This document shows positions 12,885 to 57,408 of a stretch of DNA of 64,000 bases, piece by piece. The notes below the pieces were generated by a model. That model was not told the origin of the DNA. It saw nothing but the letters and a program-made list of their open reading frames with translations, and did no database searches. Origin of the DNA: an uncultured Planctomycetales bacterium (GTDB taxonomy: Bacteria > Omnitrophota > Gorgyraeia > Aquiviventales > Aquiviventaceae); assembly GCA_964373175.1 (NCBI GenBank), contig CAYJTP010000004.1:6651-70650 (forward strand), in the 5' to 3' direction. How positions within the stretch are numbered: the stretch's first letter is position 1; the number at the start of each line of letters is the position of its first letter. The translations under genes were made by a program, and so were the position numbers.

Positions 12885-13334
12885 CTATCGCCCGCCGCGT
12901 CGGATCGGACTGGCCGTGAGAAGCCGGGCCTTATCGTTAAAACACATGACAAATCGGTCGAACACCCCGGCCCGCCCCAGTAGATTGAACCCCACGCGGA
13001 GGGCATCCGAGAACCCTGCGGGCACGGAACATTCAACGCCCGCAAACCGCACCCGGACGCGGTGGAGGTAGATGGGGATGACGCTTCCGTTGCCCAGCGC
13101 CATGTAGCGCCGCTTGGCGTGCAAGAGCTTGAGGCCTAAGAGTTGTGCGACGTCAGAATGGAAGATAGTCCACGACGCCCCTGAGTCGACATACGCTTGG
13201 AGATAGAGCCAGCGATCCCCGGTCCAGACCTGGAGGTAGACAATGGGTGCAAAGTGCCCGGTTGAATCTTTCAGATAGGGGAATTCCATCCGCCGAAGCG
13301 GGGTCCTGCGAGGCGAGGCCGAACGCGCACCCAT
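12885..13334 (-). CDS. Retropepsin-like (clan AA) aspartic protease domain protein
   Basis: …LQAYVDSGASWTIFHSDVAQLLGL… carries the D-S/T-G-A active-site motif of bacterial retropepsin-like proteases. The true start may be the internal Met (MEFPYLKD…). Confidence 0.6.
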   Translation of the reverse strand: MGARSASPRRTPLRRMEFPYLKDSTGHFAPIVYLQVWTGDRWLYLQAYVDSGASWTIFHSDVAQLLGLKLLHAKRRYMALGNGSVIPIYLHRVRVRFAGVECSVPAGFSDALRVGFNLLGRAGVFDRFVMCFNDKARLLTASPIRRGGR

Positions 13335-13461
13335 CCCCCCACCTATCTATCAAGGCGGCTATGAGGAGAGAGAAACCGCCGTGCGAAGCCGCCTTGATCA
13401 ACCTGTGTTGTTCCGTCGAACGAGTCCGCTGACAGCGGACTCGAGATAGATGGGGGGACCA

Positions 13462-14184: not shown

Positions 14185-14258
14185 TCAGAGGTCAGAAGAC
14201 AGAGGACAGAAGACAGAATACAGATGACAGGTCAGACCAGAGACAAGAGACATGAGAC
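14185..14258. repeat. Heptamer-repeat element, copy b
   Basis: gtcagaagacagaggacagaagacagaatacagatgacaggtcagaccagagacaagagacatgagaccagagat, between the aroK start and the upstream gene stop. Confidence 0.8.
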
Positions 14259-21252: not shown

Positions 21253-22367
<1,115 letters not shown>

Positions 22368-25292: not shown

Positions 25293-25304
25293 GCCTTGAG
25301 CCTC

Positions 25305-25395
25305 GTGATGATCCCTTCACGCTTGCCCGCCCCCCCGGCCCGCCGCGAGCGACAGCCGGGGCGGGCAGCGATAGCGAAAGGCGGGCCGGGGAGGC
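25305..25395. mobile_element. Partial, inverted copy of the TIR element core (the ccccccggcccgccg…gacagccggggcgggc… segment), immediately 5' of the ilvB start
   Basis: gcccgcccccccggcccgccgcgagcgacagccggggcgggcagcgatagcgaaaggcgggccgggg is approximately the reverse complement of the interior of the copies at 28479-28706 and 34447-34600. Confidence 0.5.
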
Positions 25396-25418
25396 ACTCA
25401 ACCAGGATGTGCGCGCCT

Positions 25419-25572
25419 TTCATCCCACCACCTGCGCCGCACGGCGGCGTTGTATCGTTGGTCCCACCATCGGCGCCGTGGCAAAGCCAAAACCCACAGC
25501 GTTGGGCAAATTAGAGGCCATTGGCTTCGTGGTCCGCCGTAGGCGGACCAGCGCAGGTGGTGGGATCATCTT
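25419..25572. mobile_element. MITE-like element with 16-bp terminal inverted repeats ATCCCACCACCTGCGC / GCGCAGGTGGTGGGAT (variant of the ATCCCCCCACCTG family)
   Basis: ttcatcccaccacctgcgcc … gcgcaggtggtgggatcatc. The TIRs are perfect and ~110 nt apart. It lies in the ilvB 5' region. Confidence 0.55.
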
Positions 25573-25726
25573 CTCAGGCATTCCGCGGACTCTTCATCCC
25601 TTTCACCCTGCCTGCCCGCGCCGAACATCGTGAGGCAGGCGGGCCTGACCGACGCCAGCTGAGGCGAGTGGTCAACCCGCTGATCGCCGTGATCGCGCAG
25701 GGAGGTCTTTGAAAAGACAAATTGTT

Positions 25727-25735
25727 ATTATACCA
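25727..25735 (-). promoter_or_regulatory. Candidate extended -10 promoter element (TGGTATAAT on the minus strand) ~430 nt upstream of ilvB
   Basis: The plus strand reads attatacca. The region is AT-rich and a weak TTGAC lies upstream. Sequence only. Confidence 0.3.
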
Positions 25736-25930
25736 CGGAACGGCCCGTCAAGGAGCGCCGCGTCTTACGGGCTAGGGGCTTGAGGCAGCGGCCGGGGTCG
25801 TGCGGCGACCCCGCCATCGGGCCACGGCCTTCGGCCGTAGGCCCGCGCTGCTTCTTCAAACGCGGGGGCGGGATGTCGCCCCCCCGGCCCGACGCTGGCG
25901 CGAGCCGGGGCGGGCAGGTGGAGCGTGGTA

Positions 25931-26692
25931 TCAGGGTGCCACGCCCGCCTGCCCCCTGTTCCCCCTGGCGGGCAGGGGCTCTGCCCGTGGGGCTCCACTT
26001 GCGGTGTTCTTGGGCTGGATCGAGCAGGTGAGGGGATAGAGATAGAGCGGCACGAGATCGCGCGGATTGTCCGTATGTCCTTGGTGGAGCCGTTCAAGAC
26101 CCAGCCGCCCGAGCGTCGCGGCCCGAGGCATCCAGAGCTCCGGAGCCGCGAAGAGGGCTCGACTCCCGTAGCGTTGGGTCAGTGGCTCTCGATAGAGCGT
26201 CACGCCATCGCCGAGGAAGACGATGGAACCATCATATGTGATGAGGGTGGGCAATTCCTCGATCGTGACGAGGTGGTAGTCTGACTGCTTGCGCAACGTG
26301 CCGTCGATGACTCGGTAGCACGCCGTATAGACCTTGCGCTGCTTGGCATCCACGATGGGACAGATGGCATGGGGCACAAGCGGCAGGTGTGCAGCTAAGA
26401 CATCAAGCGAGGCAACACCCACCACCGGTGTGTGCGTGCGAAAAGCGAGGGCTTTCACAAATGCGACCCCGATCCGCAAGCCGGTGAAGGACCCTGGACC
26501 GATGTCCACGACGATAGCCTCCAGCTGCTCCAACGTCTGGTTGGCGGTCTGCAACACCCTAGTCACGGCTTGGGGAAGTTCAACGGCGTGTGGGCGCTCC
26601 GCGAAGATCTCATAGGAGGCCAGCACTCGGACTTCCTCCACCACGGCCACGCCAAGCTGGTCGGTCGCTGTGTCAATCGCGAGAACACTCAT
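25931..26692 (-). CDS. tsaB: tRNA threonylcarbamoyladenosine biosynthesis protein TsaB (YeaZ)
   Basis: MSVLAIDTATDQLGVAVV…IVVDIGPGSFTGLRIGVAFVKALA… The listed C-terminal ~30 aa run through REP-type repeats and may not be native. Confidence 0.85.
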   Translation of the reverse strand: MSVLAIDTATDQLGVAVVEEVRVLASYEIFAERPHAVELPQAVTRVLQTANQTLEQLEAIVVDIGPGSFTGLRIGVAFVKALAFRTHTPVVGVASLDVLAAHLPLVPHAICPIVDAKQRKVYTACYRVIDGTLRKQSDYHLVTIEELPTLITYDGSIVFLGDGVTLYREPLTQRYGSRALFAAPELWMPRAATLGRLGLERLHQGHTDNPRDLVPLYLYPLTCSIQPKNTASGAPRAEPLPARGNRGQAGVAP

Positions 26693-26694
26693 GG

Positions 26695-27120
26695 GTTTCG
26701 TGACCCGTGATTCGTGGCTCGTGACCCGTCAGAGACTATGAATGAGTCTGACAAGCATGCGAGTTTCGTGGTTCACGGCTTCTGCGATGATCTGCATTTG
26801 CGGTGGATGCACATATCTCCTTCTTTGAGCGATAATCAACAATGTGTCCAACTCAGCACACGAACCTAACGAGACGTAAAGATGCTGCTGGTACTCCTTG
26901 GTATGGTGCCTGACAAAGCCTTCAGCGATATTCGTTGGGATTGACACGGCCGCACGTCTCATCTGACTGCTTAACCCATACATCTCCGATTGCGGAAAAG
27001 TCTCTGTCAGTTCGTAAACCAGACCGACGATTTCAACACCTTTTTGCCACACTTGAAGATCTTTATAGTCCTTCACCTTCATCGGCAGTTTACGGATCAC
27101 GGGTCACTGGTCACGAGTCA
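26695..27120. mobile_element. Low-GC cassette carrying a four-helix-bundle gene, flanked by inverted repeats built from GTGACCCGTGA units
   Basis: Left flank ttcgtgacccgtgattcgtggctcgtgacccgtcag. Right flank cggatcacgggtcactggtcacgagtcacggc, which is the reverse-complement arrangement. The enclosed gene is ~48% GC against ~62% for its neighbours. Confidence 0.55.
26729..27100 (-). CDS. Four-helix-bundle protein of the 23S rRNA intervening-sequence protein family
   Basis: 123 aa. …WQKGVEIVGLVYELTETFPQSEMYGLSSQMRRAAVSIPTNIAEGFVRHHTKEYQQHLYVSLGSCAELDT… matches this family as recalled. Confidence 0.7.
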   Translation of the reverse strand: MIRKLPMKVKDYKDLQVWQKGVEIVGLVYELTETFPQSEMYGLSSQMRRAAVSIPTNIAEGFVRHHTKEYQQHLYVSLGSCAELDTLLIIAQRRRYVHPPQMQIIAEAVNHETRMLVRLIHSL

Positions 27121-27613
27121 CGGCAAGTTTCTGGACCAGTTGGGATGAACGGGGCCCGTGGCTGATCGCCGCGATGGTCCGCTGGTTGGTCGTCCGATGG
27201 GTCAGGTAGATTTCGAGGTAGTCCTCTGGGAGACAGCCGCTGAATCGATCCGCCCACTCAATCACCGTCGCCTTCTTTGACGAGAACACCCATTCCAGGT
27301 CCAACCAGACGGCGGAGGCCGCGCCCTCCAACCGATACCCGTCGATATGGATCAGGGGGAGGCGTCCTTGATGCTCGCGTAAGAGGATAAAGGTCGGGCT
27401 TTTCACGCCTCCCGGATCGATGCCAAGCCCTTTCGCGATCCCTTGCACGAAGGTCGTCTTGCCACTGCCCAGTTCCCCCACCAGACCCACCACATCCCCC
27501 TGTGCCAGGAGCTCGCCGAGCCGCTCGCCGAGTTGGTGGGTCTCCTCCACCGAGCGGCTGATCAGTTCAAAAATGTTTGAAGCCTTTTGGGATGAGCGAG
27601 GTGATGCGGCCAT
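27104..27613 (-). CDS. tsaE: tRNA threonylcarbamoyladenosine biosynthesis ATPase TsaE (YjeE)
   Basis: Walker A VVGLVGELGSGKTTFVQGIAKGLG. ~160 aa. Confidence 0.85.
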   Translation of the reverse strand: MAASPRSSQKASNIFELISRSVEETHQLGERLGELLAQGDVVGLVGELGSGKTTFVQGIAKGLGIDPGGVKSPTFILLREHQGRLPLIHIDGYRLEGAASAVWLDLEWVFSSKKATVIEWADRFSGCLPEDYLEIYLTHRTTNQRTIAAISHGPRSSQLVQKLAVTRDQ

Positions 27614-28478
27614 CGGTTCGCACCAATTCTACACCAGCGCCGTGTGCGGTCACCACACCAATCTCCGTCAGGGGTAGGCGACCAATCGCCGCCGGCACGC
27701 GAGGGGCGATCCGCTGCGGGACCGTGAACAGCAATTCAAAATCTTCCCCGTCCATGAGCGCATGCCACGCCGTCTCGGCGGCTTGAGCCACGGGGATCGC
27801 GTCTTCGTGGATCTGGAACGTCACACGGCTAGCCCGCGCCAGCTGCCAGAGATCAGACGCCAGTCCATCCGAGAGATCAATCATGGCATGCACAGGAAGA
27901 TGCGCCACGAGCCACTGGGCCTCGCGCAGCCGTGGCGTGAAGGTCGCATGCCGGTGGTGCGCTAAGGCTCCGCCCAATCGCCCGGTCACGAACACCCGCT
28001 CACCGAGCTTGGCGCCACTGCGCAGGACAAGATGCTTCGGCCGGACGGTTCCGAGAATCGCGACGTCGATCACCACACACGGGGCGCGGACCGTATCGCC
28101 GCCGACGATCGCCACGCCAAATCGTCTGGCGCAGCGCACCAAGCCGTGGTAGAGCCGATCCACAAACGACACGGCAACCTGGCGCGGAAGTCCGAGAGAC
28201 ACAACCGCGTATTTCGGCACACCTCCCATCGCCGCGATGTCGCTGATATTGCATGCCAAGGCCTTCCATCCGATCCAGTGAGGGGCCAGATGTCCTCGCG
28301 TGAAGTGCACCCCCTCAATCAGCATGTCACTGGCAAAGAGCAGTGACTTGGTTCGCGTCGCGCGGAGAACCGCCGTGTCATCCCCGATTCCCACCAGCAC
28401 CGACGGGACAACGGGAATCCGTCGCCTGAGGCGGTCAATCAAGCCCACTTCCCCCAGCGTGGCAATCGTCCGCGTCAT
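27567..28478 (-). CDS. thiL: Thiamine-monophosphate kinase. The true start is ATG at 28476-28478, and the listed ORF extension runs into repeat DNA.
   Basis: MTRTIATLGEVGLIDRL…AIR-synthase-related fold motifs (…GDDTAVL…, …GGDTVRAP…). The upstream 61 codons of the listed ORF are encoded by the TIR element. Confidence 0.85.
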   Translation of the reverse strand: MTRTIATLGEVGLIDRLRRRIPVVPSVLVGIGDDTAVLRATRTKSLLFASDMLIEGVHFTRGHLAPHWIGWKALACNISDIAAMGGVPKYAVVSLGLPRQVAVSFVDRLYHGLVRCARRFGVAIVGGDTVRAPCVVIDVAILGTVRPKHLVLRSGAKLGERVFVTGRLGGALAHHRHATFTPRLREAQWLVAHLPVHAMIDLSDGLASDLWQLARASRVTFQIHEDAIPVAQAAETAWHALMDGEDFELLFTVPQRIAPRVPAAIGRLPLTEIGVVTAHGAGVELVRTDGRITSLIPKGFKHF

Positions 28479-28706
28479 CCCCCCACCTGTCTTCCCCGGC
28501 CCGCCGATAGCCCTCGCCGCCCGCCCCGGCTGTCGCCGGCGTCGGGCCGGGGGGGCGGGCGGCCCGGAGGGCCAACCGCGTTTGGGTTCATGGGTTGATT
28601 CACCTTCGGTGAACCCCCACACCACCCCGCCATCGGCGGGGTGGCGTCGGGGGAGCGCCATTCGGGGCTTCCTGGTGTGGGGGTGAATAGACAGGTGGGG
28701 GGATCA
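28479..28706. mobile_element. MITE-like element copy 1 (~228 bp). Terminal inverted repeats GTCATCCCCCCACCTG … CAGGTGGGGGGATCAT, with a nested CCCCCACACC…GGTGTGGGGG palindrome and a CCACCCCGCCA..GGCGGGGTGG REP.
   Basis: It is directly adjacent to the thiL ATG (…cgcgtcat|ccccccacctgtcttcc…gaatagacaggtggggggatcat). The interior shares ~70 bp with copy 2 at 34447-34600 (ccggcccgccgatagccctcgccgYccgccccggctgtcgccggcgtcgggccgggggggcgggc). Confidence 0.65.
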
Positions 28707-29735
28707 TCCCAACGCCTTGAACGTCAATCCCAGCCCCACCAACAAGGCGTTGTGAACCATGTGGACCGCAATGGGGCTGAATAACGACCCGGTCCGCTCA
28801 TAGAGATCGGCGAGCAAACAGCCCAGGATCACGATGGGGAGGAATCCGATGGGGTTGGTGTGGACCGCCGCGAACATCGAGCCGCTGATCAGCATGGCGA
28901 CAACGCGAGACATCCGGGTCCGCAGCGCGGGAAAGAGCACCCCTCGAAAAAAGATCTCCTCGACCACCGGCCCCACGAGGCACGCCAGCACGACGGTCAG
29001 CCCCACGATGATCCCCCGTTCCTCAAAGAGCAATTCCTGAATGGGCTCCAGGGGCGGCTGAATGCCGAACCGCTGGCACAGTTGGATCAGGATCCACAGG
29101 AGCCCGAAGATCCAGGGAAAGAGCGTCACATAACCCCGAAGCCCTTGCGTGATGGCCCCAGCCACCCTGCGTCGAGACAAACCCAAGGCCATCCGAACGG
29201 AGAGCGCTCTGGCGGACGCGAATCCGCACACGGTGAGCACGAGAAATCCGTGCACGATGAACATCGCAAGCACGCTCCACAGGTGCGGATCGGCCAGCTG
29301 CGATGGCCCCCACGCCATCAGGCTCAGGTGCACAAACGGGAGGAGGCTCGCGACCAACGCCAGCAACAGCACCATGCGGGCCAGTTCTTGGAGTGACCAA
29401 CTCCGGGGGAGTTTGGAGCGGTAGCGAAAGAGTCGGCGCAGGTTCCGTCGCCGGACGAGCTGGACCGTCAGCCCAACGCCACTCACGACCAGCCCAACCA
29501 ACAGCACGGCCCAGAATCCCAAGAGGAGCGCTACCCTGGGCTTCTGGGAAAAAAGCGACACCAGTTTTGTCGGGTCACGCTCAAGTCCCTGGAATTTCGT
29601 CGACGGGGCAGGGGTTTCGAATTCCGGCTCCAAGGCGCTGTGCAATCGAACCGGGGTACCGATGAACAACCGTGTGTACAGCACAAGGACGATGAGACCG
29701 AGCCCTGCATACAACCACCAGCCGCGATGAAGCAT
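28704..29735 (-). CDS. CPBP family intramembrane glutamic metalloprotease (CAAX protease-like)
   Basis: …VVEEIFFRGVLFPAL… (EExxxR), …FAAVH… and …HMVHNALL… motifs in a multi-TM protein. The probable start is the internal Met at ~29735 (MLHRGWWLYAG). It abuts the metG stop. Confidence 0.75.
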   Translation of the reverse strand: MLHRGWWLYAGLGLIVLVLYTRLFIGTPVRLHSALEPEFETPAPSTKFQGLERDPTKLVSLFSQKPRVALLLGFWAVLLVGLVVSGVGLTVQLVRRRNLRRLFRYRSKLPRSWSLQELARMVLLLALVASLLPFVHLSLMAWGPSQLADPHLWSVLAMFIVHGFLVLTVCGFASARALSVRMALGLSRRRVAGAITQGLRGYVTLFPWIFGLLWILIQLCQRFGIQPPLEPIQELLFEERGIIVGLTVVLACLVGPVVEEIFFRGVLFPALRTRMSRVVAMLISGSMFAAVHTNPIGFLPIVILGCLLADLYERTGSLFSPIAVHMVHNALLVGLGLTFKALG

Positions 29736-31321
29736 CAGGCGCGTGAGGAGTCCGGCCGAGGAAATAAGACGTCCCGCCTCCCGAGGGGTTGGCCAGGCGT
29801 AAGGCCTGGCCAGGAGGTCGTATCCGCGAAGCGTCGAGGCGCCTGGCCCATCCCGAGTTGACCCCAGATGGCTTGCGCCACACACGGCATGAACGGCTCC
29901 ATGGTGATCGCGACAACCCGGATGACTTCCGCAAGGACCGCTAAGACCGTGTGCAATCGCTCAGGGGAAGATGTCTTCGCCAGTTGCCAGGGGCTGGTGG
30001 TTTCGATGTACCGATTGGCATGGCTGACCAGCTGAAAGATGGCGTCGAGCGCTTCCGCAAAATTGAGTCGTGCCATCGCCGTCTCCAGCCGCTTCCCGAG
30101 GCCCAAGGCTTCCTGGCGTACGGGCTCATCATCAACCGCACACCCCACCGGACCGAGCGAGGGCAGGACGCCGTGGCAGTAGCGCTCGATCATGGAGAGG
30201 GTTCGATGCACGAGGTTCCCGAGGTCATTGGCCAAGTCCGCATTCAACCGAGTGAGAATCGCCTCTTCAGAGAAGTTGCCATCTTGGCCGAAGGGGATCT
30301 CGCGCAACAGAAAGTAGCGGTAGACATCGGCCGCGTACGGCTGCGAGGCCAGCACCTCGCGAATGACCACCGCGGGATCAACGATATTCCCGCGCGACTT
30401 GGACATCTTCTGCTCGCCCACCTTCCACCACCCATGGGCCACGATCATCCGCGGCATGTGGTCATCCGGAAATCCCAAGGCATGGAGCACAATCGGCCAG
30501 TAAATGGCATGATGCCTGAGGATATCCTTCCCGATGAGATGGACGTCGGCAGGCCAGAGGGACGCGAACCGACGCTCGTCCTCTCCGTAGCCCGGGGCGC
30601 TGATGTAGTTGAGTAGCGCATCGAACCAGACATAGGTCACGTGTTGCGGGCTGAACGGCACTGGGATCCCCCATCCCACCCGCTGGCGGGGTCGGGTGAT
30701 GCAGAGGGACTCGGGGAGAGGGCGGTCTAGGAGACTGGCCATTTCGTTGTAGCGTGTCTCAGGATGGATGAAGGTCTTGTGGTCTCGGACAAACCCCCGC
30801 AGCCAGTCTTGGGCGGGGCGCAGCGGCAGGTGCCACCCGTCTTCATGGACTCCCTCTACAGAACGCTGACAACTGGGGCACAGCGGCTGCTCAGCGACGG
30901 GGCTGAGTTCCTCGTGGGTCCAAAATGTCTCGCACGGGGTGCAGTACCACCCCTCATAGGTCGCCCGAAGCACCTTGCGTTCATCGTGCAGGCGCGCGAG
31001 GCAGGCCTGCACGATGCGGATGTGACGCGCTTGGGTCGTGCGAATGAAATCATCATAGGAAATGGATAAGAGCTGCCAGAGGGCGGTGAATCGCTCAACG
31101 ACGTCATCGACAAAGCGCTGCGGCGTGTGCCCAGCGGCCGTTGCGGCTTGTTCGATCTTCTGCCCATGCTCATCGGTCCCGGTCAACAGGAAGACGGCTT
31201 CCCCTTTGAGCCGGTGGTAGCGCGCCACGCAATCGGCCGCGATATTGGTATAGGAGTGCCCGATGTGGGGCGCGGCGTTGACGTAGTACAACGGCGTCGT
31301 GAGATAGTATGTCTTCGACAT
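29735..31321 (-). CDS. metG: Methionyl-tRNA synthetase (short form without a C-terminal tRNA-binding domain)
   Basis: Class I signatures PLYYVNAAPHIGHSYTN (HIGH) and KMSKSRGN (KMSKS). Zinc knuckle CPSCQ. Confidence 0.95.
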   Translation of the reverse strand: MSKTYYLTTPLYYVNAAPHIGHSYTNIAADCVARYHRLKGEAVFLLTGTDEHGQKIEQAATAAGHTPQRFVDDVVERFTALWQLLSISYDDFIRTTQARHIRIVQACLARLHDERKVLRATYEGWYCTPCETFWTHEELSPVAEQPLCPSCQRSVEGVHEDGWHLPLRPAQDWLRGFVRDHKTFIHPETRYNEMASLLDRPLPESLCITRPRQRVGWGIPVPFSPQHVTYVWFDALLNYISAPGYGEDERRFASLWPADVHLIGKDILRHHAIYWPIVLHALGFPDDHMPRMIVAHGWWKVGEQKMSKSRGNIVDPAVVIREVLASQPYAADVYRYFLLREIPFGQDGNFSEEAILTRLNADLANDLGNLVHRTLSMIERYCHGVLPSLGPVGCAVDDEPVRQEALGLGKRLETAMARLNFAEALDAIFQLVSHANRYIETTSPWQLAKTSSPERLHTVLAVLAEVIRVVAITMEPFMPCVAQAIWGQLGMGQAPRRFADTTSWPGLTPGQPLGRRDVLFPRPDSSRA

Positions 31322-31326
31322 GTCTG

Positions 31327-32391
31327 TCAGGGGCGTGGGGCGTGGGGCGTGGGGCGTGGGGCATCGCTCTGACCGTGCCCCTCGTCTCTCGCCCCCTGCC
31401 CCAACAAATCAAGCCATTCTTCGCGTAAGAGGGTCCCGACCAATCGGGGGCTCACCATCTGCTCAAGGGACCCCCATAACTCAATGAGCCGGAGGCCCGT
31501 CTCCACGCAGCGCTCGCTGTCCACCTGCTTCGCTTGCCGATGGATCGTCGTGGCGGCGTCCCGATGGCTCACCAGCGACTCATCCGCCACGGCCGCAACC
31601 GCAAGGTCACGAAGCCACGCAATCGACCCCATGAGCCAGGAAGCCACTTCCTGACGGTCCATCGGGACCGCCCATCCCAGCCACGGAGCTGGCGAGGCTG
31701 CACCAAACTGCGCGACCATTCCCTCCAGCGCCTTCCACTGCGTCATCACCTCAAGTGCCCGCGAGAGGCTCCCTTGGGCCAGACGGCTGATGGCCTGCGC
31801 AATCTGTGGAGGACAGGCGTGCCTGGTGACCAGCGAGTCTTCGATGAGGGAAGCGGACAGCCGAGCAAACCGAATGACCTGGCATCGCGAGACAATCGTC
31901 GCAAGGCAGCGGGCGGGCTGATCGGTCAGGAGAACAAACCGCGCGTGGGCGGGCGGTTCTTCGAGCGACTTCAGGAGGATGTTCCCCGCTTCCTCGGTCA
32001 ACCGATCCGCCCCATCCACGATCACCACCTGACACGTCCCCATGAAGGGACGCAGCGCAATCCGGCCTAACACGCCCCGAACCTCATCGATCCGAATCAG
32101 CTCTGAGGCGCCATGCGGGAAAAGCCCGTGCACATCAGGATGGACCTGGCGGTCGATCCGCTGACAGCTGTCGCAGCGATCACAGGAGTCGCTGTCGCCG
32201 TGTTCGCAGTTGAGGGCTTTAGCTAATGTTCTCGCCACGAGGCGCTTGCCGACCCCATCCGGTCCCACAAAGAGATACGCAAGCGCCAGACGCTGGCGGC
32301 TCGCGTGGGTCTGCAAGATCCGAAGGGCAAGGGCTTGTCCATGAATCTCCGTCCACGCCATCCGACCGAGTCCTATCCTGAAGGCCGCCAC
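31327..32391 (-). CDS. holB: DNA polymerase III delta-prime subunit
   Basis: AAA+ fold with AYLFVGPDGVGKRLVARTLAKALNCEH and the Zn module CDRCDSCQ. The C-terminal tail (…DAPRPTPHAPRP) is encoded by GGGGCGTGGGGCGTGGGG repeats. Confidence 0.85.
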   Translation of the reverse strand: MAAFRIGLGRMAWTEIHGQALALRILQTHASRQRLALAYLFVGPDGVGKRLVARTLAKALNCEHGDSDSCDRCDSCQRIDRQVHPDVHGLFPHGASELIRIDEVRGVLGRIALRPFMGTCQVVIVDGADRLTEEAGNILLKSLEEPPAHARFVLLTDQPARCLATIVSRCQVIRFARLSASLIEDSLVTRHACPPQIAQAISRLAQGSLSRALEVMTQWKALEGMVAQFGAASPAPWLGWAVPMDRQEVASWLMGSIAWLRDLAVAAVADESLVSHRDAATTIHRQAKQVDSERCVETGLRLIELWGSLEQMVSPRLVGTLLREEWLDLLGQGARDEGHGQSDAPRPTPHAPRP

Positions 32392-32413
32392 CTGTCCAGG
32401 GACCGATGGGTGA

Positions 32414-33058
32414 TCATCGCTGAGAATCGAGCCAGCTCAAAACCACACCGAGTACCCGGCGCGCAATCTCGGCTTGAGGCTGGGTGGCGTCAATGGCCAC
32501 AAAGCGCTGGGGCTCTCGCTGAGCGAGTTGACGGTACCCGGCTCGGACGCGCTCATGGAACGCGCGAGCTTTCTGTTCCATGCGATCCCGCGGCCTCCCC
32601 ACGCGTGCAAAACCTACCGCCGTTGGGACATCCAGGAGAATCGTCAGATCCGGGAGCCTCCCGTCAATCACCGCTCGGCCAAGCTGATCGAGCCAGTGGA
32701 CATCGACGCCTCCGCCGAACCCTTGATAGGCCACCGTCGAATCATGGAAGCGGTCGCACACCACGACGGCCCCTCGCTGCAATGCGGGACGGATCCGCGC
32801 CTGAATGAGCTGGAGCCGCCCCGCGAGAAAGAGCAGGGCCTCCGCTAGCGGGGAGAATCGATCCGACCCATCATGCAGCAACGTCTGCCGCAGACGACGA
32901 CCCAATGGCGTTGACCCGGGGTCGCAGACAAACACCACGGATTTCCTCCGAGTACGCAAGACCCGGACGAGACGTTTCGCCTGGCTCGACTTACCAGAGC
33001 CTTCTGGACCTTCGAAGGTGATGAAGAACCCAGGACGCGTCATGTCACGCGACGCCAC
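32414..33058 (-). CDS. tmk: Thymidylate kinase
   Basis: FITFEGPEGSGKSSQ P-loop, DRF-like motif (CDRFHDSTVAYQG). Confidence 0.9.
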   Translation of the reverse strand: MASRDMTRPGFFITFEGPEGSGKSSQAKRLVRVLRTRRKSVVFVCDPGSTPLGRRLRQTLLHDGSDRFSPLAEALLFLAGRLQLIQARIRPALQRGAVVVCDRFHDSTVAYQGFGGGVDVHWLDQLGRAVIDGRLPDLTILLDVPTAVGFARVGRPRDRMEQKARAFHERVRAGYRQLAQREPQRFVAIDATQPQAEIARRVLGVVLSWLDSQR

Positions 33059-34446
33059 AACGTCCCGCCGGCGGTATCCGTCAAGAGATATCCCTCCTGC
33101 TGGAGCTGCCGGCGGATTGCATCAGCCCGCTTGAAGTCCTTGGCCTTCCGAGCCCCGTCCCGTTCGGCAACCAGCGCTTGCAACCGTTGCTGGATGTCCG
33201 GACGCTCTTCTGACATGCCGTGGAGGAATAATCCAAGGGCCACCCCCCATTCCAGCAAGACATCATGGATCCCTCGTGCCATGAAGCGCTGTTTCGAGTC
33301 GCCAGACTCCAGGATCCGATGTCCCAGGTTCACCAGATCAAACAGCACGGACAAGGCCTCTGGCGTGTTGAGATCGTTAGCCATCGCTGTGTCGAATTGC
33401 GCTCGAGCCTTGAGGAGCTCTGGTGGAGCCGCTGCGCCACTCACAGCGTCGGGTTTGAGCTGGTCATCGTGTTGGAAAAACCGAGAAAATTCCTGCCAAT
33501 TGGTCTTGGCTTCAACCATGCGCTCCGATGAGTAGTCAATCGGCGACCGATAATGCGTTTTGAGGAAGAAGATTTTCAGGTAGTCGGGGTGAGGATAGTC
33601 CACCAGGACGTGGTCAACGGTCAGAAAGTTGCCCAACGACTTCGACATCTTTTCGCCGTTGACGGTCAGCAGCCCATGATGGACCCAATAACGGGCGAAG
33701 GGTTTGCCAGCCGCCTGGGCCTGGGCGAGTTCATTCTCATGATGCGGAAATACGAGATCGACTCCGCCGCCGTGGATGTCAAACGCATCGCCCAGATACT
33801 TCGTGCTCATCGCTGAACACTCGATATGCCAGCCAGGTCGTCCCCTCCCCCAGGGGCTGTTCCAAGACGGCTCGCCGGGTTTCGCAGCTTTCCACAGCGC
33901 GAAGTCTAACGGATCACGCTTGTGCTCACCCGGTTCCACGCGCGTCCCGGCTTGAAGCTCATCCAAGCTGCGGTTGGAGAGCTGGCCATAACGCGCAAAC
34001 TTCCGCACGGCAAAGTAGACATCGCCACCCGCTTCGTAGGCCGCGCCTTGCATGAGGAGCTTTGAGATCAGGTCGGTCATCTCTGGCACGACATGCTCCG
34101 TCGCGCGCGGCTCGTGCGTGGGAGGGTTGAGGCCAAGCCGATCCAACGTCTCATGATACCGTTTCAAATATCGTTCGGCGACGGCGGTCGGCGATTCACC
34201 GGTCTCCTGGGCTTTCTGGATGATTTTATCGTCGACGTCCGTCACGTTGCGGACACACTGCACCTGGAATCCTTTGTATTCGAGGTAGCGACGCAGGATC
34301 TCAAAGATGTAGGCACTCCGGACGTGGCCGATGTGCGGCTCATCGTACACCGTGGGGCCACAGACATACATCTTCACTGTAGGAGGATCGAGCGGCGTCA
34401 AGTCTTGGACGGTCCGAGTGAGCGTATTGTAAAGGCGCAGGGTCAT
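33040..34446 (-). CDS. cysS: Cysteinyl-tRNA synthetase. The true start is ATG at 34444-34446, and the upstream 112 codons of the listed ORF belong to the TIR element.
   Basis: [16 protein letters not shown]…[18 protein letters not shown] (HIGH) … KMSKSLGN. Confidence 0.9.
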
Positions 34447-34600
34447 CCCCCCACCTGCCTTCCCCCCCGGCCCGCCGATAGCCCTCGCCGTCCGCCCCGG
34501 CTGTCGCCGGCGTCGGGCCGGGGGGGCGGGCCGATCAAGCGTTGCGTCTCCTGTTGATTCACCTTCGGTGAATAGGCAGGTGGGGGGATCACGGGCTGTG
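34447..34600. mobile_element. MITE-like element copy 2 (~154 bp), same TIRs as copy 1, directly abutting the cysS ATG
   Basis: ggtcat|ccccccacctgccttcccccccggcccgccgatagccctcgcc…gattcaccttcggtgaataggcaggtggggggatcac. Confidence 0.65.
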
Positions 34601-35302
34601 GTGTGGTGACTGCGATTGCCGGAATTCTTTGAGGTGCCGCTCGATGAGATCAATTTCGTGCTGGAGTTTCTCCAAACGCTCCGTGAGCGGATCCGGGAGG
34701 TTGGTGTGATCGAGATTGATGCCGGGAAAATGGCGATCAGCGGTCCGGGCCACGCGGCCGGGGATCCCCACCACGGTAGCATTCGCCGGGACGTCTCGCA
34801 CCACCACCGCGTTGGCTCCGATCATCGCGTTATCGCCCACCGTGATATGCCCCAGGACTTTCGCCCCAGCGCCAATGACCACATTGTCTCCAATCGTTGG
34901 ATGGCGTTTGCCGCGTTGCTTGCCCGTCCCGCCGAGCGTCACCCCTTGAAACAGCGTCACGTTGTCCCCGATCACCGCCGTCTCCCCAATCACCACCCCC
35001 ATCCCATGGTCGATGAACAACCCCCGGCCAATCATCGCGGCGGGGTGGATCTCAATCCCGGTCGCCCACCGAACCAGCAACATGAGCAACCGCGGGATCA
35101 CGGGGATGTGCAGTCGGGACAACCCGTGGGCGACGCGATACCCAATGATCGCATGCAGTCCTGGATACGCCAGCAGCACCTCGAGCAGATTGCGGGCCGC
35201 AGGGTCTCGCTCAAAGCAGGCGCGGATCTCCTTGGCGAATGCGACTCGAATCATCAAAAGCAGCGTGACAATGAGGACGCTGCTGATAATCAGTGACGTC
35301 AT
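34589..35302 (-). CDS. cysE: Serine O-acetyltransferase
   Basis: N-terminal SAT helical domain plus left-handed beta-helix hexapeptide repeats (…[41 protein letters not shown]…). Confidence 0.9.
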
Positions 35303-35814
35303 GGTGGCGGTTCTCGTTTCCTCAAGGACGATCGGGGGGTGAGCAGGACGACCGCATGGGCCGCGATTCCACGCTTGCCGGGAGGCAGCCCCTCGGTCGT
35401 TTTCGCCTTGACCGAAACCGCGGAGGAGTCCACCTTGAGCAAGCGGCTAATCACCTGCCGCATCTGGGCCTTATACGGAGTCAACGTGGGTTCATCGGTC
35501 ACGACGGTCGCGTCCACGTTCCCGACGCAAAACCCGGCGCGATGGACTCGGCCGAGGGCCTGTTGCACAAACCAGCGGCTGTCCGTCCGCGTGTAGTGCG
35601 GATCGCTGGAGGGAAAAAGCTCGCCGAGATCCGGCGCGCCGATGGCACCCAAGAGCGCATCCGCGATGGCGTGGAGCAAGACATCCGCGTCCGAATGGCC
35701 AGAGAGTCCGCGAGCAGCCGGAATGACCACGCCACCGAGTTTCAACGGACGCCGACTGGCGTTAAAACGATGGCTATCGTAGCCAATGCCTATTCTCATT
35801 TCATGTCCCTTCAT
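35299..35814 (-). CDS. ispF: 2-C-methyl-D-erythritol 2,4-cyclodiphosphate synthase
   Basis: [12 protein letters not shown]…[19 protein letters not shown]… The probable start is the Met at ~35799. Confidence 0.9.
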
Positions 35815-35915
35815 TCAGAGGACAGAAGTCAGAAATCAGAAGACAGATCAACGCTAAACACACCGGAGGGTCTATTCTGATTTCTGTCCTCTGCCATCTG
35901 TCCTCTGGTACCTCC
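35815..35915. repeat. Heptamer-repeat element, copy e: inverted pair forming a long hairpin between ispD and ispF
   Basis: cagaggacagaagtcagaaatcagaagacaga…(loop)…tctgatttctgtcctctgccatctgtcctctg. Confidence 0.8.
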
Positions 35916-36669
35916 GCTTCAAGATCGCTTCTGCAAGTAGCAGATCTTCGCGGGTGGTGACCTTGATATTCAACGGATCCCCCGGCACCACATGAACCGG
36001 AAACCCGGCCCATTCCAGCAGGGCCGCGTCATCCCACCACCCGTCGCATCCGCCAAAGGCGGATCGATCGGCCCTTTGGGCCGAGCGACGAGTGGTGGGA
36101 TCATCCGGCATGGTCTCCAAGTGATGATCGACCCGCGCGAGTGTCTCTGCCAGCCAGTCTCGACGAAAAACCTGAGGCGTTTGCATGAACCAGAGGCTGT
36201 CTCGATCGAGGGTCAATCGAACCGTCGCGGCCTGATCGACGGCCTTCACGGTCACCGAGGCTGGCAAGCCGCACGCCACGGCTCCATAGCGCCGGGCCTG
36301 TGCAATCGTTGCCTGGATCAGACGTCGCGTGAGACACGGCCGAGCCCCGTCATGGACGAGAACCCATTGGGCCTTGGCAGGCAGTGCTGCCATCCCTCGG
36401 ATGACTGACTGGGCCCGCGTTGAGCCGCCGATGACAAGGGCCGTCACTTTCGTCAGCCGATGGCGTCGCACGAGACGCTGCATCGCGGCGCGATCCGCTC
36501 GGCGGACAGCCACCACAATCCACCGAATCGCCGGGGTCACCTCAAGCGCCTTGAGGGGGTGGAGGATGAGCGGCTGTCCCGCGAGCGTGATGAAGGCTTT
36601 CGAGGTCGGCCCTCCCAGGCGCATTCCTTGCCCCGCGGCAGGAATCACGGCTCCAACGTTCCGGACCAT
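35872..36669 (-). CDS. ispD: 2-C-methyl-D-erythritol 4-phosphate cytidylyltransferase carrying an in-frame ~26-aa insertion and a heptamer-encoded C-terminal tail
   Basis: MVRNVGAVIPAAGQGMRLG… conserved IspD blocks through …NIKVTTREDLLLAEAIL. Insertion PDDPTTRRSAQRADRSAFGGCDGWWD between …HLETM and DAALLEWAGF (E. coli has …TITDEASALEYCGF…). Confidence 0.85.
   Translation of the reverse strand: MVRNVGAVIPAAGQGMRLGGPTSKAFITLAGQPLILHPLKALEVTPAIRWIVVAVRRADRAAMQRLVRRHRLTKVTALVIGGSTRAQSVIRGMAALPAKAQWVLVHDGARPCLTRRLIQATIAQARRYGAVACGLPASVTVKAVDQAATVRLTLDRDSLWFMQTPQVFRRDWLAETLARVDHHLETMPDDPTTRRSAQRADRSAFGGCDGWWDDAALLEWAGFPVHVVPGDPLNIKVTTREDLLLAEAILKRRYQRTDGRGQKSE
36031..36101. mobile_element. Miniature TIR element (GTCATCCCACCAC … GTGGTGGGATCAT) with internal CCGCCAAAGGCGG and GGCCCTTTGGGCC hairpins, inserted in frame inside ispD
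   Basis: gtcatcccaccacccgtcgcatccgccaaaggcggatcgatcggccctttgggccgagcgacgagtggtgggatcatcc. It has the same terminal motif and the same GTCAT/ATGAT end asymmetry as the elements at 25419, 28479 and 34447. Confidence 0.7.
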
Positions 36670-36768
36670 CGAGGTTCACCTCATCACCGCGCCGCTCACG
36701 TGTATGGAGGAGGCCGTTGGTGTCTGTTCGTGGCGGAATACTGCTGTGCCCGTTGTGGGGAGGCGTCG

Positions 36769-37851
36769 TCAGCGACGAGAAGTATTCCCAGGTTGTCTGG
36801 GTGTCGTCGCGGCGGCACTTCCCCCCTGTGAGGAACCCCGGGCCGTCGCCGAGAGATCCGGTCGCACAAACACCATGCGACCCGCCGCCGTTTGCAAGAC
36901 GCTGGTGACGACCCCTTGGACGGTCTGGCCGATCAGGTGACGGCCGTTTTCCACCACCACCATGGTCCCATCGTCAAGATATGCCACGGCTTGGTGTGCT
37001 TCCTTGCCTTCCTTGAGGGGTTTGACCTCCAGGGCCTCACCCGGAAGCACGACCGGCCGAAGTCCCTGCGCCAATTCGTTGACGTTCAGGACCGTGACGC
37101 CCTGGAACTCTGCGACCTTATTGAGGTTATAATCGGTCGTCACCACCTTGGCCCCAAGCAGTTTGGCGAGCTTCACCAGTTTCGCATCGGTATCGGCGAT
37201 GCGCGGGATGTCCTCCTCATGGATGCGCAGATCCACGTGGGATTGACTGCGCAGGGCATTCAGGACATCTAAGCCCCGGCGACCCCGATTGCGTTTGATC
37301 GGATCGGCGCTGTCCGCAATCGCCTGCAGCTCCCGCAGGACGAACCGCGGGATAATCAGCCGACCTTCAAGAAATCGCGTCCGGCACAGTTCGGCGATTC
37401 GTCCATCGATGATGGCGCTGGTGTCAATCGCAAAGAGCTCTTCGCTACGATCCTGACGGGACAGCCGGACGTACGGGATCACGACGTTGAATTCGTCACG
37501 GCCGCGCAGCGCGACCACCATCCCGATATAGGCAAACGACCACGTCACCACCAGCCGAACCAGACTAATCGTCGCGGGATCGAGGGTCGTCAAGGCGATC
37601 GCATCGGACACCATCTTGGCCATAATCAGGCCGAACAACAGCCCAAACACCGCGGCGGAGAATCCCCGAACCGAGACCCGGCCGATGCGATGGAGCAACG
37701 CCTCAAAGGCGACGAGAAATCCGCCACAGAGAATCCCAACGGAAAACCAGAGCCACCACGCCACCAGGGACTGGGCTCGCTGGATCCCCAGCTGAATGCC
37801 CAGCAAGCCTCCAATGAGGATAAATCCCACGCGAATCAAGCGCAGATCCAT
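36769..37851 (-). CDS. Membrane-anchored PIN and TRAM domain protein (YacL-like)
   Basis: N-terminal TM helices, a PIN domain (…LFAIDTSAIIDGRIAEL…DPIKRNRGRRGLDVL…) and a C-terminal TRAM-like beta barrel (…GQTVQGVVTSVLQTAAGRMVFVR…). It sits in the yacL position between radA and ispD. Confidence 0.8.
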   Translation of the reverse strand: MDLRLIRVGFILIGGLLGIQLGIQRAQSLVAWWLWFSVGILCGGFLVAFEALLHRIGRVSVRGFSAAVFGLLFGLIMAKMVSDAIALTTLDPATISLVRLVVTWSFAYIGMVVALRGRDEFNVVIPYVRLSRQDRSEELFAIDTSAIIDGRIAELCRTRFLEGRLIIPRFVLRELQAIADSADPIKRNRGRRGLDVLNALRSQSHVDLRIHEEDIPRIADTDAKLVKLAKLLGAKVVTTDYNLNKVAEFQGVTVLNVNELAQGLRPVVLPGEALEVKPLKEGKEAHQAVAYLDDGTMVVVENGRHLIGQTVQGVVTSVLQTAAGRMVFVRPDLSATARGSSQGGSAAATTPRQPGNTSRR

Positions 37852-39274: not shown

Positions 39275-39372
39275 ACTTCGCGATCAGAAGACAGAGGTCA
39301 GAAGTCAGAGGACAGGCGCGGCCGAGCTTATTGGGTACCTGTCTTCTGTCGTCTGTCTTCTGTCTTCTGTCC
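39275..39372. repeat. Heptamer-repeat element, copy f: inverted pair or hairpin between mlaD and radA
   Basis: gatcagaagacagaggtcagaagtcagaggacagg…ctgtcttctgtcgtctgtcttctgtcttctgtcc. Confidence 0.8.
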
Positions 39373-49628: not shown

Positions 49629-50066
49629 AAACCGAAAATAAGTCGAGAGAGAAAAGAGAAATGCGATGACAACAGAAATTGGAACCACGAATCCCGCTAG
49701 ACCGTATAAACGCGAAAGAGGTTCTCCCATCCTTTGTTCCACCAGTCGGACTTCCTCAAGAAAGAATCTAAGTTGAAAGGAGGGATTGTACAGATACCAT
49801 CCTTTTAACAGCCGAGCGTTTGCTGTCCATGCAGACCACATTTTCAGCCAAAACGCTACGACAACTACGACAGGAGACAGCATAACCCAAACAAACCACA
49901 AGGGGGGCGGCCTGTTTCGAAAAACCAAAGACGCAGTCAGAATGGAACACCCAAACATGATGTAAGCAAGCAAATAAAGCACAAGTTGCCAGCGCTTCCA
50001 ATGCATTGCCTCAAAAAATATTCGTGCTAATTCACGTGCGAGCGTTCTCCTGTCAGTTTCTGGCAT
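49626..50066 (-). CDS. Hypothetical small membrane protein in a low-GC (~45%) gene. Probably horizontally acquired.
   Basis: 146 aa with 3-4 hydrophobic helices (…LVLYLLAYIMFGCSILTASLVF…, …LWFVWVMLSPVVVVVAFWL…). Composition differs strongly from the flanking lolC and lysS. Confidence 0.5.
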   Translation of the reverse strand: MPETDRRTLARELARIFFEAMHWKRWQLVLYLLAYIMFGCSILTASLVFRNRPPPLWFVWVMLSPVVVVVAFWLKMWSAWTANARLLKGWYLYNPSFQLRFFLEEVRLVEQRMGEPLSRLYGLAGFVVPISVVIAFLFSLSTYFRF

Positions 50067-54111: not shown

Positions 54112-54168
54112 ACATTCAGTCTCTTGTCTCATGTCTGACATCTGTCCTCTGTCGTCTGACATCTGATT
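54112..54168. repeat. Heptamer-repeat element, copy h
   Basis: cagtctcttgtctcatgtctgacatctgtcctctgtcgtctgacatctg, immediately 3' of secA. Confidence 0.75.
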
Positions 54169-57100: not shown

Positions 57101-57349
57101 GCGTTTCAGTCGCTCATCATGGCCAAGCTCATACCACTCGGGGCTGCTCGGATCAATAAACTGGAAGGACTCAAGAGATTTGCGCAGGCGGGCTCGCAGC
57201 TCCTCGGTTTTGGCGCGTAACTGGTCGTCGGAGAGCTTCTGGACATCTGGCTCAAGGCGATTAATGCGCTCGACCACGGGTGCGAGCCGCTTGAGCTCCC
57301 GTGCGCTCTGCGTCCCGAGCAGCTTTTGGAGAATCCACGTGACCATCAT
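54173..57349 (-). CDS. secA: Preprotein translocase subunit SecA
   Basis: DEAD-like motor motifs (…[20 protein letters not shown]…), preprotein cross-linking domain, and C-terminal zinc-binding [14 protein letters not shown]. 1058 aa. Confidence 0.95.
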
Positions 57350-57408
57350 CAGATGACAGACATCAGACCACAGACGTCAGACGACAGAAAACAGAGGACA
57401 GAACATGG
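57348..57408. repeat. Heptamer-repeat element, copy i
   Basis: catcagatgacagacatcagaccacagacgtcagacgacagaaaacagaggacagaac, between the prfB stop and the secA start. Confidence 0.75.

What the first reader, a model, noticed from the sequence alone, without database searches (positions are those of the whole stretch)
36031..36101. 72-bp TIR element inserted in frame inside ispD
The element has the same GTCATCCC(A/C)CCAC…GGGATCAT ends as the start-codon-associated elements. It contains two perfect internal hairpins and adds PDDPTTRRSAQRADRSAFGGCDGWWD to IspD between conserved blocks. Removing it restores an E. coli-like alignment. It shows that this mobile family can land inside coding sequence while preserving frame and presumably function of an essential isoprenoid enzyme.
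Basis: partly seen in the sequence, partly recalled or inferred. Interest (0 to 1): 0.6.

Follow-up and report, generated by a model that had tools for sequence, protein, structure and literature searches.

The report
Mobile hairpin element inside ispD gene
A 72-base insertion in the essential isoprenoid gene ispD is a real copy of a small mobile hairpin element common in Omnitrophota bacteria, and copies of this element seem to survive only where ribosomes can read through them.

Summary
Confirmed. ispD (35872-36669, minus strand) carries a 72-bp insertion: a 69-bp core (36032-36100) plus a duplicated 3-bp target (TGA on the gene strand). The core has the ends TCCCACCAC.../...GTGGTGGGA and two perfect 7-bp hairpins. 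It adds 24 residues in frame. Of 120 IspD homologues, 118 lack the segment, including the closest relative (88% nt identity), which differs by a single clean 72-nt gap. The one other carrier, a distant Omnitrophica IspD, has a different 84-bp element with the same ends at the same site, so the two insertions look independent. It shows a large family with TNA target duplications and conserved 12-nt ends. The interiors vary in sequence but always form hairpins. At least six other proteins carry in-frame copies, and PurL was hit twice at one site. I did not expect the length bias: core+3 is ≡2 or 0 (mod 3) and almost never 1. The ≡2 copies sit at ATGA stop/start overlaps, where the old start codon opens a mini-ORF that ends exactly on the duplicated TGA. 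No transposase was found. In-frame elements of this kind are known from Rickettsia. The apparent adaptation to translation looks new but is inferred only.

The parts
35872..36669 (-). ispD coding sequence (265 aa) that hosts the insertion
   Evidence: ORF. Pfam IspD annotation on the identical protein and matches to IspD crystal structures.
36101..36103 (-). Upstream copy (in gene orientation) of the 3-bp target-site duplication, TGA, inside codons GAT|GAt
   Evidence: The empty site in relatives is CCxGAyGAyGC.
36032..36100 (-). 69-bp core of the element, read in frame as part of ispD
36085..36100 (.). One arm of the terminal stem (5' arm on the mRNA): TCCCACCACTCGTCGC
36032..36047 (.). Other arm of the terminal stem (3' arm on the mRNA): GCGACGGGTGGTGGGA. 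It contains the Shine-Dalgarno-like GGTGG, and its last A plus the TG of the duplication spells ATG.
36048..36064 (.). Internal hairpin 1: ATCCGCC-AAA-GGCGGAT, 7 bp with a 3-nt loop
   Evidence: The identical hairpin occurs in metagenome copies L084 and L065.
36068..36084 (.). Internal hairpin 2: TCGGCCC-TTT-GGGCCGA, 7 bp with a 3-nt loop
36029..36031 (-). Downstream copy (in gene orientation) of the target-site duplication, TGA, inside GAT|GAC (Asp213-Asp214)
34446..34588 (-). Family member E3 (143-bp core, length class 2) between the cysE stop (TGA, 34589-91) and the cysS start. The start is the element's last A (34446) plus TG.
28478..28703 (-). Family member E2 (226-bp core) between the stop of an Rce1-like gene and the thiL-like start. 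It carries a nested 80+3 bp insertion of a related element with a TCA duplication.
25423..25565 (-). Family member E1 (143-bp core, class 2). Its mini-ORF (25420-25581, minus strand) reads MPEKMIPPP...QVVG* and ends on the TGA that overlaps the next ATG.
13334..13458 (-). Fifth family member (125-bp core, one mismatch in the ends) between the shikimate kinase stop and the next gene's start. Its duplication is an atypical TGG.

Best explanation
The extra 72 bases are one copy of a non-autonomous terminal-inverted-repeat element, a MITE. It inserted into the TGA that spans the two aspartate codons (GAT|GAC) of ispD and duplicated that TGA. The core is 69 bases, so core plus duplication is 72. 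The reading frame xxT|GAT CCC ACC... contains no stop codon. Ribosomes therefore read straight through and add 24 residues (DPTT...WWD). These loop out just before the conserved Asp-Asp that caps a helix. The duplication rebuilds Asp-Asp on both sides of the insert, so that helix start is kept. The enzyme most likely still works. Shown here: the insertion, its ends, the duplication, the empty site in relatives, family membership, and a second hit at the same site in a distant lineage. Inferred: the element is moved in trans by a DDE transposase of the IS5 superfamily (IS1031-like), because the family makes 3-bp TNA duplications. Also inferred: copies persist only where translation can deal with them, because the terminal stem would otherwise bury the ribosome-binding site and start codon that it carries.
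For: The ends and hairpins are present and far beyond chance. Of 120 IspD homologues, 118 lack the 24 residues. The closest relative (88% nt, 87.5% aa) differs by a single 72-nt gap at CCGGATGA|TGCC. P0028/L030, which is 55% identical and the most distant of the 119 from the window protein, carries a different 84-bp element with the same ends at the same site. Its own nearest relatives lack the insert. In the metagenome sample of 130 elements, 110 have identical 3-bp flanks: TGA 67, TCA 47, TAA 7 and TTA 5 by left flank. In-frame copies lie inside real domains of at least six other proteins. PurL was hit twice at GGATGAC, with an empty site in an 89%-identical homologue. The AlphaFold model has mean pLDDT 87.8, and only residues 188-210 fall below 50. 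It matches IspD crystal structures with TM 0.83-0.88. dN/dS is 0.20. Three independent assemblies are identical over the gene. The IS1031 subgroup of the IS5 family prefers TNA targets (PMC1676026).
Against: No transposase was found. There is none in the 64-kb window. No long element bounded by the same ends occurs in 773 kb of fetched loci. Enzyme function is untested. The insert abuts residues equivalent to AtIspD Asp261/Asp262, which line the MEP and allosteric pockets, so activity could be altered. A second ispD copy elsewhere in the genome cannot be excluded from 64 kb. dN/dS is averaged over the whole divergence, most of which may predate the insertion. The RNA structure (-58 kcal/mol, 16-bp stem) inside a coding region could be costly.
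Confidence: 0.87

Rival explanations
1. The 24 residues are an old, lineage-specific loop of IspD that only happens to be palindromic. They are not a mobile insertion.
For: The loop is in frame and the gene looks intact.
Against: The loop is absent from the nearest relative at 88% nt identity, with a clean 72-nt gap. It is flanked by a 3-bp duplication. Its ends and one hairpin are identical to those of more than 100 dispersed elements. Four more copies lie in the same window.
Confidence: 0.01
2. The insert-bearing ispD is crippled or on its way to being a pseudogene. The cell relies on another ispD copy or another route.
For: The insert lies right next to the conserved Asp-Asp motif at the MEP and allosteric pockets. 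Only 64 kb of the genome is visible.
Against: There are no stops or frameshifts. dN/dS is 0.20. The rest of the fold is predicted with high confidence. The conserved ispD-ispF-cysE-cysS arrangement is retained. All three independent assemblies that encode this exact protein are identical. An unrelated lineage tolerates an insert at the same site.
Confidence: 0.08
3. One ancient insertion was inherited by both the window lineage and the WOR_2 lineage and was precisely lost everywhere else. There were not two independent hits.
For: The site is the same, the ends are the same, and both interiors show a loop-AAA hairpin followed by a loop-TTT hairpin.
Against: The two carriers are the most distant pair in the set. 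Each has closer relatives without the insert, at 87.5% and 70% identity. The sizes (72 and 84 bp) and interiors differ. PurL shows the same pattern of two different inserts at one site with an empty intermediate. That pattern fits a preferred and tolerated target (GGATGACGC) better than many precise losses.
Confidence: 0.1
4. The element is removed before the protein is made, by RNA processing or protein splicing, so the frame does not matter.
For: The RNA forms a very stable Y-shaped structure.
Against: At 72 nt it is far too small for a group I or II intron or an intein, and it has no Rfam match. Family-wide length bias (multiples of three) and open frames argue that the copies are translated.
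Confidence: 0.02

Closest known systems
Rickettsia palindromic elements (RPEs)
   Same: Both are short palindromic repeats inserted in frame into unrelated housekeeping genes, adding a peptide segment judged compatible with the fold (review PMC10969869). Here that applies to ispD, PurL, a transglutaminase-like protein, a phosphodiesterase and others.
   Different: The host phylum is different (Omnitrophota). These elements are much shorter (55-145 bp, versus about 150 bp). They have clear 12-nt conserved inverted ends and a 3-bp TNA duplication. Their interiors vary in sequence, whereas RPEs encode a conserved peptide. Most copies here sit at stop/start junctions, not inside genes.
Bacterial MITEs derived from IS5-family elements (IS1031 group)
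   Same: They are non-autonomous, have terminal inverted repeats, and make a 3-bp duplication with the consensus TNA.
   Different: No autonomous partner was found. The whole element is a stem plus hairpins, not a deleted insertion sequence. The variable inner stem positions covary, which binding of a transposase alone does not explain.
Tourist / PIF-Harbinger MITEs of eukaryotes
   Same: Both have TNA-type 3-bp duplications and short inverted ends. The transposase superfamily is related to IS5 (PMC4482050).
   Different: Those are eukaryotic hosts, and there is no link to translation signals.
Correia elements (Neisseria) and ERIC/IRU elements (enterobacteria)
   Same: Both are transcribed hairpin-forming MITEs at gene junctions that can affect expression of neighbouring genes (my own knowledge, plus for intragenic ERIC).
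   Different: Correia elements duplicate TA and carry promoter and IHF features. Neither family is reported to rebuild a stop codon and a start codon from its duplication, or to show lengths in steps of three.
REP / BIME / REPIN elements
   Same: Both are GC-rich extragenic palindromes present in many copies.
   Different: REPs are 20-40 bp with GTAG or CGTC heads (PMC3733652 abstract). From my own knowledge, they make no target duplication. The elements here start with TCCC and make a 3-bp duplication.

Membership tests
Prokaryotic MITE | Terminal inverted repeats | tested here: met
   TCCC[A/C]CCACCTG and its complement occur on all copies. In ispD 15 of 16 stem positions pair.
Prokaryotic MITE | Target-site duplication flanking the element | tested here: met
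   Identical 3-bp flanks in 110 of 130 copies, and TGA/TGA at ispD. The search pattern fixed one base of each flank; the unfixed bases still give T-N-A.
Prokaryotic MITE | Small, with no transposase gene of its own | tested here: met
   Cores are 56-226 bp. The only ORFs inside them are 20-50-codon read-throughs.
Prokaryotic MITE | Many dispersed copies, with filled and empty sites among relatives | tested here: met
Empty sites exist for ispD and PurL. There is a nested insertion in E2.
Prokaryotic MITE | A cognate autonomous insertion sequence with the same ends | tested here: not met
   No such element in the window (Pfam/NCBIfam) and no long pair of ends in 773 kb of loci. No whole genome was searched, so absence is not established.
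IS5 family, IS1031 group (as source of the transposase) | 3-bp duplication with TNA preference | tested here: met
   Left flanks are TGA 67, TCA 47, TAA 7 and TTA 5 of 130. The IS1031 TNA preference is stated in PMC1676026.
IS5 family, IS1031 group (as source of the transposase) | A DDE transposase of that group, and ends resembling a known member | not testable with these tools
   No ISfinder-type library is available and no candidate transposase was recovered.
Rickettsia palindromic elements | Palindromic repeat inserted in frame into protein-coding genes | tested here: met
   ispD (twice), PurL (twice), Transglut_core, Phosphodiest, FecR, radical-SAM/CofH and NTP_transf_4 proteins.
Rickettsia palindromic elements | Sequence family of Rickettsia that encodes a conserved peptide | tested here: not met
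   The hosts are Omnitrophota. The interiors and the encoded peptides vary; only the ends are conserved. These elements work like RPEs but are not members.
REP / REPIN | 20-40 bp palindrome with a GTAG or CGTC head and no target duplication | tested here: not met
   The ends are TCCC..., the cores are 56 bp or longer, and a 3-bp duplication is present.
Intein or self-splicing intron | Splicing domains or a catalytic RNA core | tested here: not met
   The insert is 24 aa / 72 nt. There is no Rfam match even at E <= 1.

The most novel reading that the evidence does not exclude
This is a MITE family shaped by the ribosome. Each end carries an outward-facing GGTGG ribosome-binding motif and a final A. 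The TGA duplication rebuilds the upstream gene's stop codon on one side and a new ATG on the other. When the element lands in an ATGA stop/start overlap, both genes therefore keep their signals. The two ends pair with each other and would bury the new ribosome-binding site and start codon. Surviving copies have lengths that let a ribosome starting at the old ATG read through the whole element (MIPPP...QVGG). That ribosome stops exactly on the duplicated TGA that overlaps the new ATG, which unfolds the stem and re-couples translation. Alternatively the length is a multiple of three and the copy becomes an in-frame insert or an N-terminal extension. The ispD copy is the in-frame case.
Probability: 0.55. 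Interest if true: 0.8.

Novelty: new variant of a known kind. Interest (0 to 1): 0.66.

Why it matters
In-frame mobile palindromes have mostly been treated as a Rickettsia curiosity. Here the same outcome appears in an uncultured phylum, inside an essential enzyme. The insert lies directly next to the Asp-Asp motif that lines the substrate and allosteric pockets of IspD, a drug and herbicide target. It happened twice independently, which marks that spot as a natural permissive site for loop insertion. The family as a whole offers a clean natural experiment on how selfish DNA can be filtered or adapted so as not to break operon translation. The 3-bp duplication regenerates stop and start codons. 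The lengths come in steps of three. A mini-ORF restores ATGA coupling. Each of these is testable with reporter constructs. The elements also break short-read assemblies and cause start codons to be miscalled in Omnitrophota genomes. For example, the cysS ORF is called 580 aa from an upstream start because the frame stays open through element E3.

Tried and rejected
1. Rfam search at E <= 1 over 25000-37000 gave only two sub-threshold chance matches, so the element is not a described RNA family.
2. I looked for an autonomous partner. Unpaired ends in the fetched loci all turned out to be ordinary short copies with a mismatch in one end. No pair of ends 0.4-3.5 kb apart encloses a gene.
3. A Pfam/NCBIfam scan of 54 window ORFs found no transposase. 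It found only a Xer-type recombinase, a HepT/MNT toxin pair and housekeeping genes.
4. The ~3 kb flanks on each side of ispD in 29 genomes, including four Omnitrophota, contain none of the ends, so nothing could be learned from them about spread.
Taxonomy therefore rests on best hits to Omnitrophota for IspD and PurL.
6. Reading the flanking repeat as TCAT (4 bp) was rejected, because E3 has TCAT/TCAC and the family consensus is 3 bp. An IS3-like TG...CA reading of the ends was rejected because the two ends would then not be complementary.
7. I asked whether class-0 elements are selected to be open in all four usable frame/orientation contexts. The result was 8 of 22 against 3.7 expected, with a shuffle maximum of 8. 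That is suggestive but not convincing.
8. Literature searches for MITEs combined with translational coupling, Shine-Dalgarno or Omnitrophica found no precedent. The library is incomplete, so this is weak evidence of novelty.

Full report
**Observation.** ispD is the minus-strand ORF 35872-36669, 265 aa. On the plus strand the region reads g TCA | TCCCACCACCCGTCGC ATCCGCCAAAGGCGGAT CGA TCGGCCCTTTGGGCCGA GCGACGAGTGGTGGGA | TCA t.
- ATCCCACCAC occurs at 36031-40 and its reverse complement at 36092-101.
- A pattern requiring both ends matches the window only here, against none in 100 shuffles.
- The RNA of the gene strand folds into a Y shape: a 16-bp terminal stem and two 7-bp hairpins with 3-nt loops. 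The energy is -57.9 kcal/mol, z = -9.6.
- The single C/A mismatch on the plus strand is a G-U pair on the mRNA strand.
- The inserted DNA is a 69-bp core (36032-36100) plus one copy of a 3-bp direct repeat (TGA on the gene strand), 72 bp in all.

**It is an insertion.**
- Four Omnitrophota and three more distant IspDs align across the site with an exact 24-residue gap.
- Of the 120 best homologues out of 5.8 billion proteins, 118 lack the segment.
- The closest relative, P0002/L034, is 87.5% identical in protein and 88% in DNA. It differs by one 72-nt gap and reads ATGCCGGATGATGCCGCG at the empty site.
- Three assemblies from three separate sequencing runs are base-for-base identical to the window over 2.6-7.4 kb including the insert. 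One of them breaks inside the neighbouring element E3, as repeats tend to cause.

**A second hit at the same site.** The one other IspD with extra residues there is P0028, from Omnitrophica WOR_2 (contig MHGT01000014, L030).
- It has DDPTTCLLAERPADIRQPSAFGRPDRWWDD. This is encoded by an 81-bp core with the same ends (TCCCACCACCTGTCTG...CAGACAGGTGGTGGGA) and the same TGA repeat, but with three different internal hairpins.
- P0028 is the most distant of the 119 homologues from the window protein (55%). Each carrier has closer relatives without the insert.
- Independent insertion is the economical reading. I put one ancient insertion followed by many precise losses at about 0.1.

**Effect on the protein.**
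- An AlphaFold model built on 86 sequences is confident overall (mean pLDDT 87.8). Only residues 188-210, the insert, fall below 50.
- The model matches IspD crystal structures with target-normalised TM 0.83-0.88.
- Sequence alignment to E. coli IspD breaks exactly at ...TITD | DEASALEY....
- The Asp-Asp that follows the insert matches the DDVSIV of Arabidopsis IspD. I matched this by motif and did not verify it on coordinates.
- Asp261 and Asp262 of that motif line the allosteric pocket and can protrude into the MEP site (PMC11770629). The site is therefore not an indifferent surface patch.
- Because the target TGA spans GAT|GAC, the duplication recreates Asp-Asp on both sides (MPDD-...-WWDDAALLEW), so the helix start is preserved.
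- dN/dS against the nearest relative is 0.20 over 227 codons. Function is likely retained but untested.

**The family.**
- The window holds four more copies: 13334-13458, 25423-25565, 28478-28703 and 34446-34588.
- Of 130 elements found in those loci, 110 have identical 3-bp flanks. The left flanks are TGA 67, TCA 47, TAA 7 and TTA 5. The pattern fixed one base of each flank, but the unfixed bases still spell T-N-A.
- E2 contains a nested copy of a related element with its own TCA repeat.
- Best hits for IspD and for a PurL that hosts a copy are Omnitrophota.
- A TNA preference is that of the IS1031 group of the IS5 family (PMC1676026). No transposase was found in the window or paired with the ends in 773 kb of loci.

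**Structure of family members.**
- The first 12 nt are conserved, partly by construction of the search.
- At position 5 the A/C choice on one arm is matched on the other in 115 of 120 copies.
- Positions 13-15, which the pattern did not constrain, use all four Watson-Crick pairs and are paired in 81-93% of copies.
- The interiors differ in sequence but carry 1.67 perfect hairpins each (stem of 5 bp or more, loop of 3-4 nt), against 0.26 in shuffles. Median folding z is -3.1.
- Pairing itself therefore seems to be maintained. Whether this acts on DNA or on RNA is not known.

**Signs of selection for translatability.**
- Among the 130 elements first tabulated, core length plus 3 is ≡2 (mod 3) in 79, ≡0 in 44 and ≡1 in 7.
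- After clustering into 73 sequence clusters, the pure clusters number 47, 19 and 1.
- Context of ≡2 copies: an ORF of at least 150 nt starts at the element's last A plus TG in 41 of 46. The one informative control frame gives 18 of 46.
- An upstream ORF ends on the left TGA in 28 of 44 (controls 8 and 16).
- The base before the duplication is A in 70% and G in 15% of sites, much like start-codon usage.
- In these copies the frame from the old start codon is open across the whole element in 46 of 49 clusters. Shuffled interiors give a mean of 23.5 and a maximum of 32, and the flipped orientation gives 30.
- For this length class that frame ends exactly on the right-hand TGA, which overlaps the new ATG.
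- In the window, E1 and E3 follow this pattern. In E2 the nested insertion breaks the old-ATG frame.
- ≡0 copies are in-frame inserts or N-terminal extensions.
- Pfam domains span or flank the insert in six further proteins: a phosphodiesterase, a transglutaminase-like protein, PurL, a FecR-like protein, a radical-SAM/CofH protein and a nucleotidyltransferase.
- PurL was hit twice at GGATGAC, by different inserts in P0125 and P0127, with an empty site in the 89%-identical P0126.
- The ispD copy is open in all four usable frame/orientation contexts.

**Mechanism, with its status.**
- Shown: insertion at TGA, the duplication, in-frame read-through, recurrence, and the length and frame biases.
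- Inferred: the arms pair and so bury the GGTGG motif and the new ATG. A ribosome reading from the old ATG opens the stem and stops at ATGA, which restores coupling. Copies whose length would send that ribosome out of frame into the next gene (class 1) are lost.
- Inferred: mobilisation by an IS1031-like transposase.
- The context classes rest on ORF heuristics in GC-rich DNA, not on gene calls. The sample is limited to cores of 55-115 nt.

**Comparison and novelty.** In-frame palindromic elements are known from Rickettsia, and intragenic MITEs from Coxiella, Anabaena and enterobacteria (PMC10969869). On its own the ispD insert is therefore a new member of a known kind. The TNA duplication that rebuilds a stop and a start, the ends that carry a ribosome-binding motif, and the length classes had no precedent in the papers I could search. 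I rate the whole as a new variant of a known kind.

Noticed in passing
window 25289-25423 (minus strand): Between element E1 and the true ilvB start (ATG at 25292) lies a 44-codon ORF. Its first 11 codons (MKGAHILVECL) are a diverged copy of the ilvB N-terminus (MKGAQILIECL, by my count about 22 of 32 nt identical). Its stop TGA overlaps the real ilvB ATG. Together with the E1 mini-ORF this makes a chain of ATGA-coupled short ORFs ahead of ilvB. The origin of the duplicated gene start is unexplained.
   Followed up: partly
window 25310-25385, 28490-28560, 34458-34530: A GC-rich module (CCCGGCCCGCC...GGCTGTCGC...GGGCCGGGGGGGCGGGC) recurs inside E2, inside E3 and next to ilvB. GGCCGGGGGGGCGGGC has 4 matches against 0.26 expected. 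It may be a second small mobile unit nested in the elements. One short-read assembly breaks inside it.
   Followed up: partly
window 14186-14217, 21323-21375, 35816-35907, 39285-39369, 54141-54158, 57350-57402: Short arrays of the heptamer CAGARGA lie at gene junctions, often as two inverted arrays forming a hairpin (26 matches against 1.15 expected). The one at 35816-35907 lies between ispD and ispF. It supplies the C-terminal tail (...YQRTDGRGQKSE*) and stop codon of ispD, which homologues lack.
   Followed up: no
window 28478-28703 (E2): E2 equals E3 plus an 80+3 bp nested insertion of a related element (ends CCCCCACACC.../...GGTGTGGGGG, TCA repeat). This moves E2 into the rare length class and cuts short the frame from the old start codon. 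An internal 52-codon ORF (28475-28633) still ends on the TGA that overlaps the thiL-like start.
   Followed up: partly
window 13334-13458: A fifth family member has one mismatch in its ends and an atypical TGG/TGG flanking repeat, not TNA. Its read-through frame stops at a TAG about 10 nt before the new ATG.
   Followed up: partly
window 54176-57349 (SecA): The SecA_DEAD domain spans residues 8-448 against a 290-position profile. The P-loop domain spans 464-747 against 198 matched positions of a 205-position profile. SecA therefore carries roughly 150 and 85 extra residues, which could be further inserts or lineage-specific loops.
   Followed up: no
PurL homologues P0131, P0210, P0173, P0208: Other rare 16-30-residue inserts, with different end residues, recur at two further PurL sites in Omnitrophota homologues. 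This hints that other element families also land in frame in this phylum.
   Followed up: no
L123 1773-1916: A radical-SAM/CofH-like gene carries a 144-bp in-frame composite: one family element nested inside another. The combined length still preserves the frame.
   Followed up: partly
window, whole: Of 54 called ORFs, 51 are on the minus strand. Two ORFs have unusually low third-position GC (14268-15542, 425 aa, 0.45; 49629-50066, 146 aa, 0.44) and no Pfam match. The first has only sub-threshold NCBIfam hits to N-terminal domains of Leptospira-type proteins.
   Followed up: partly
family-wide (frame from the old start codon): In the commonest reading frame every copy begins Ile-Pro-Pro-Pro. 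From my own knowledge, consecutive prolines are a classic ribosome-stalling motif that depends on EF-P. Whether stalling matters for coupling or for the in-frame inserts is unknown. The ispD frame (Asp-Pro-Thr-Thr) avoids the triple proline.
   Followed up: no
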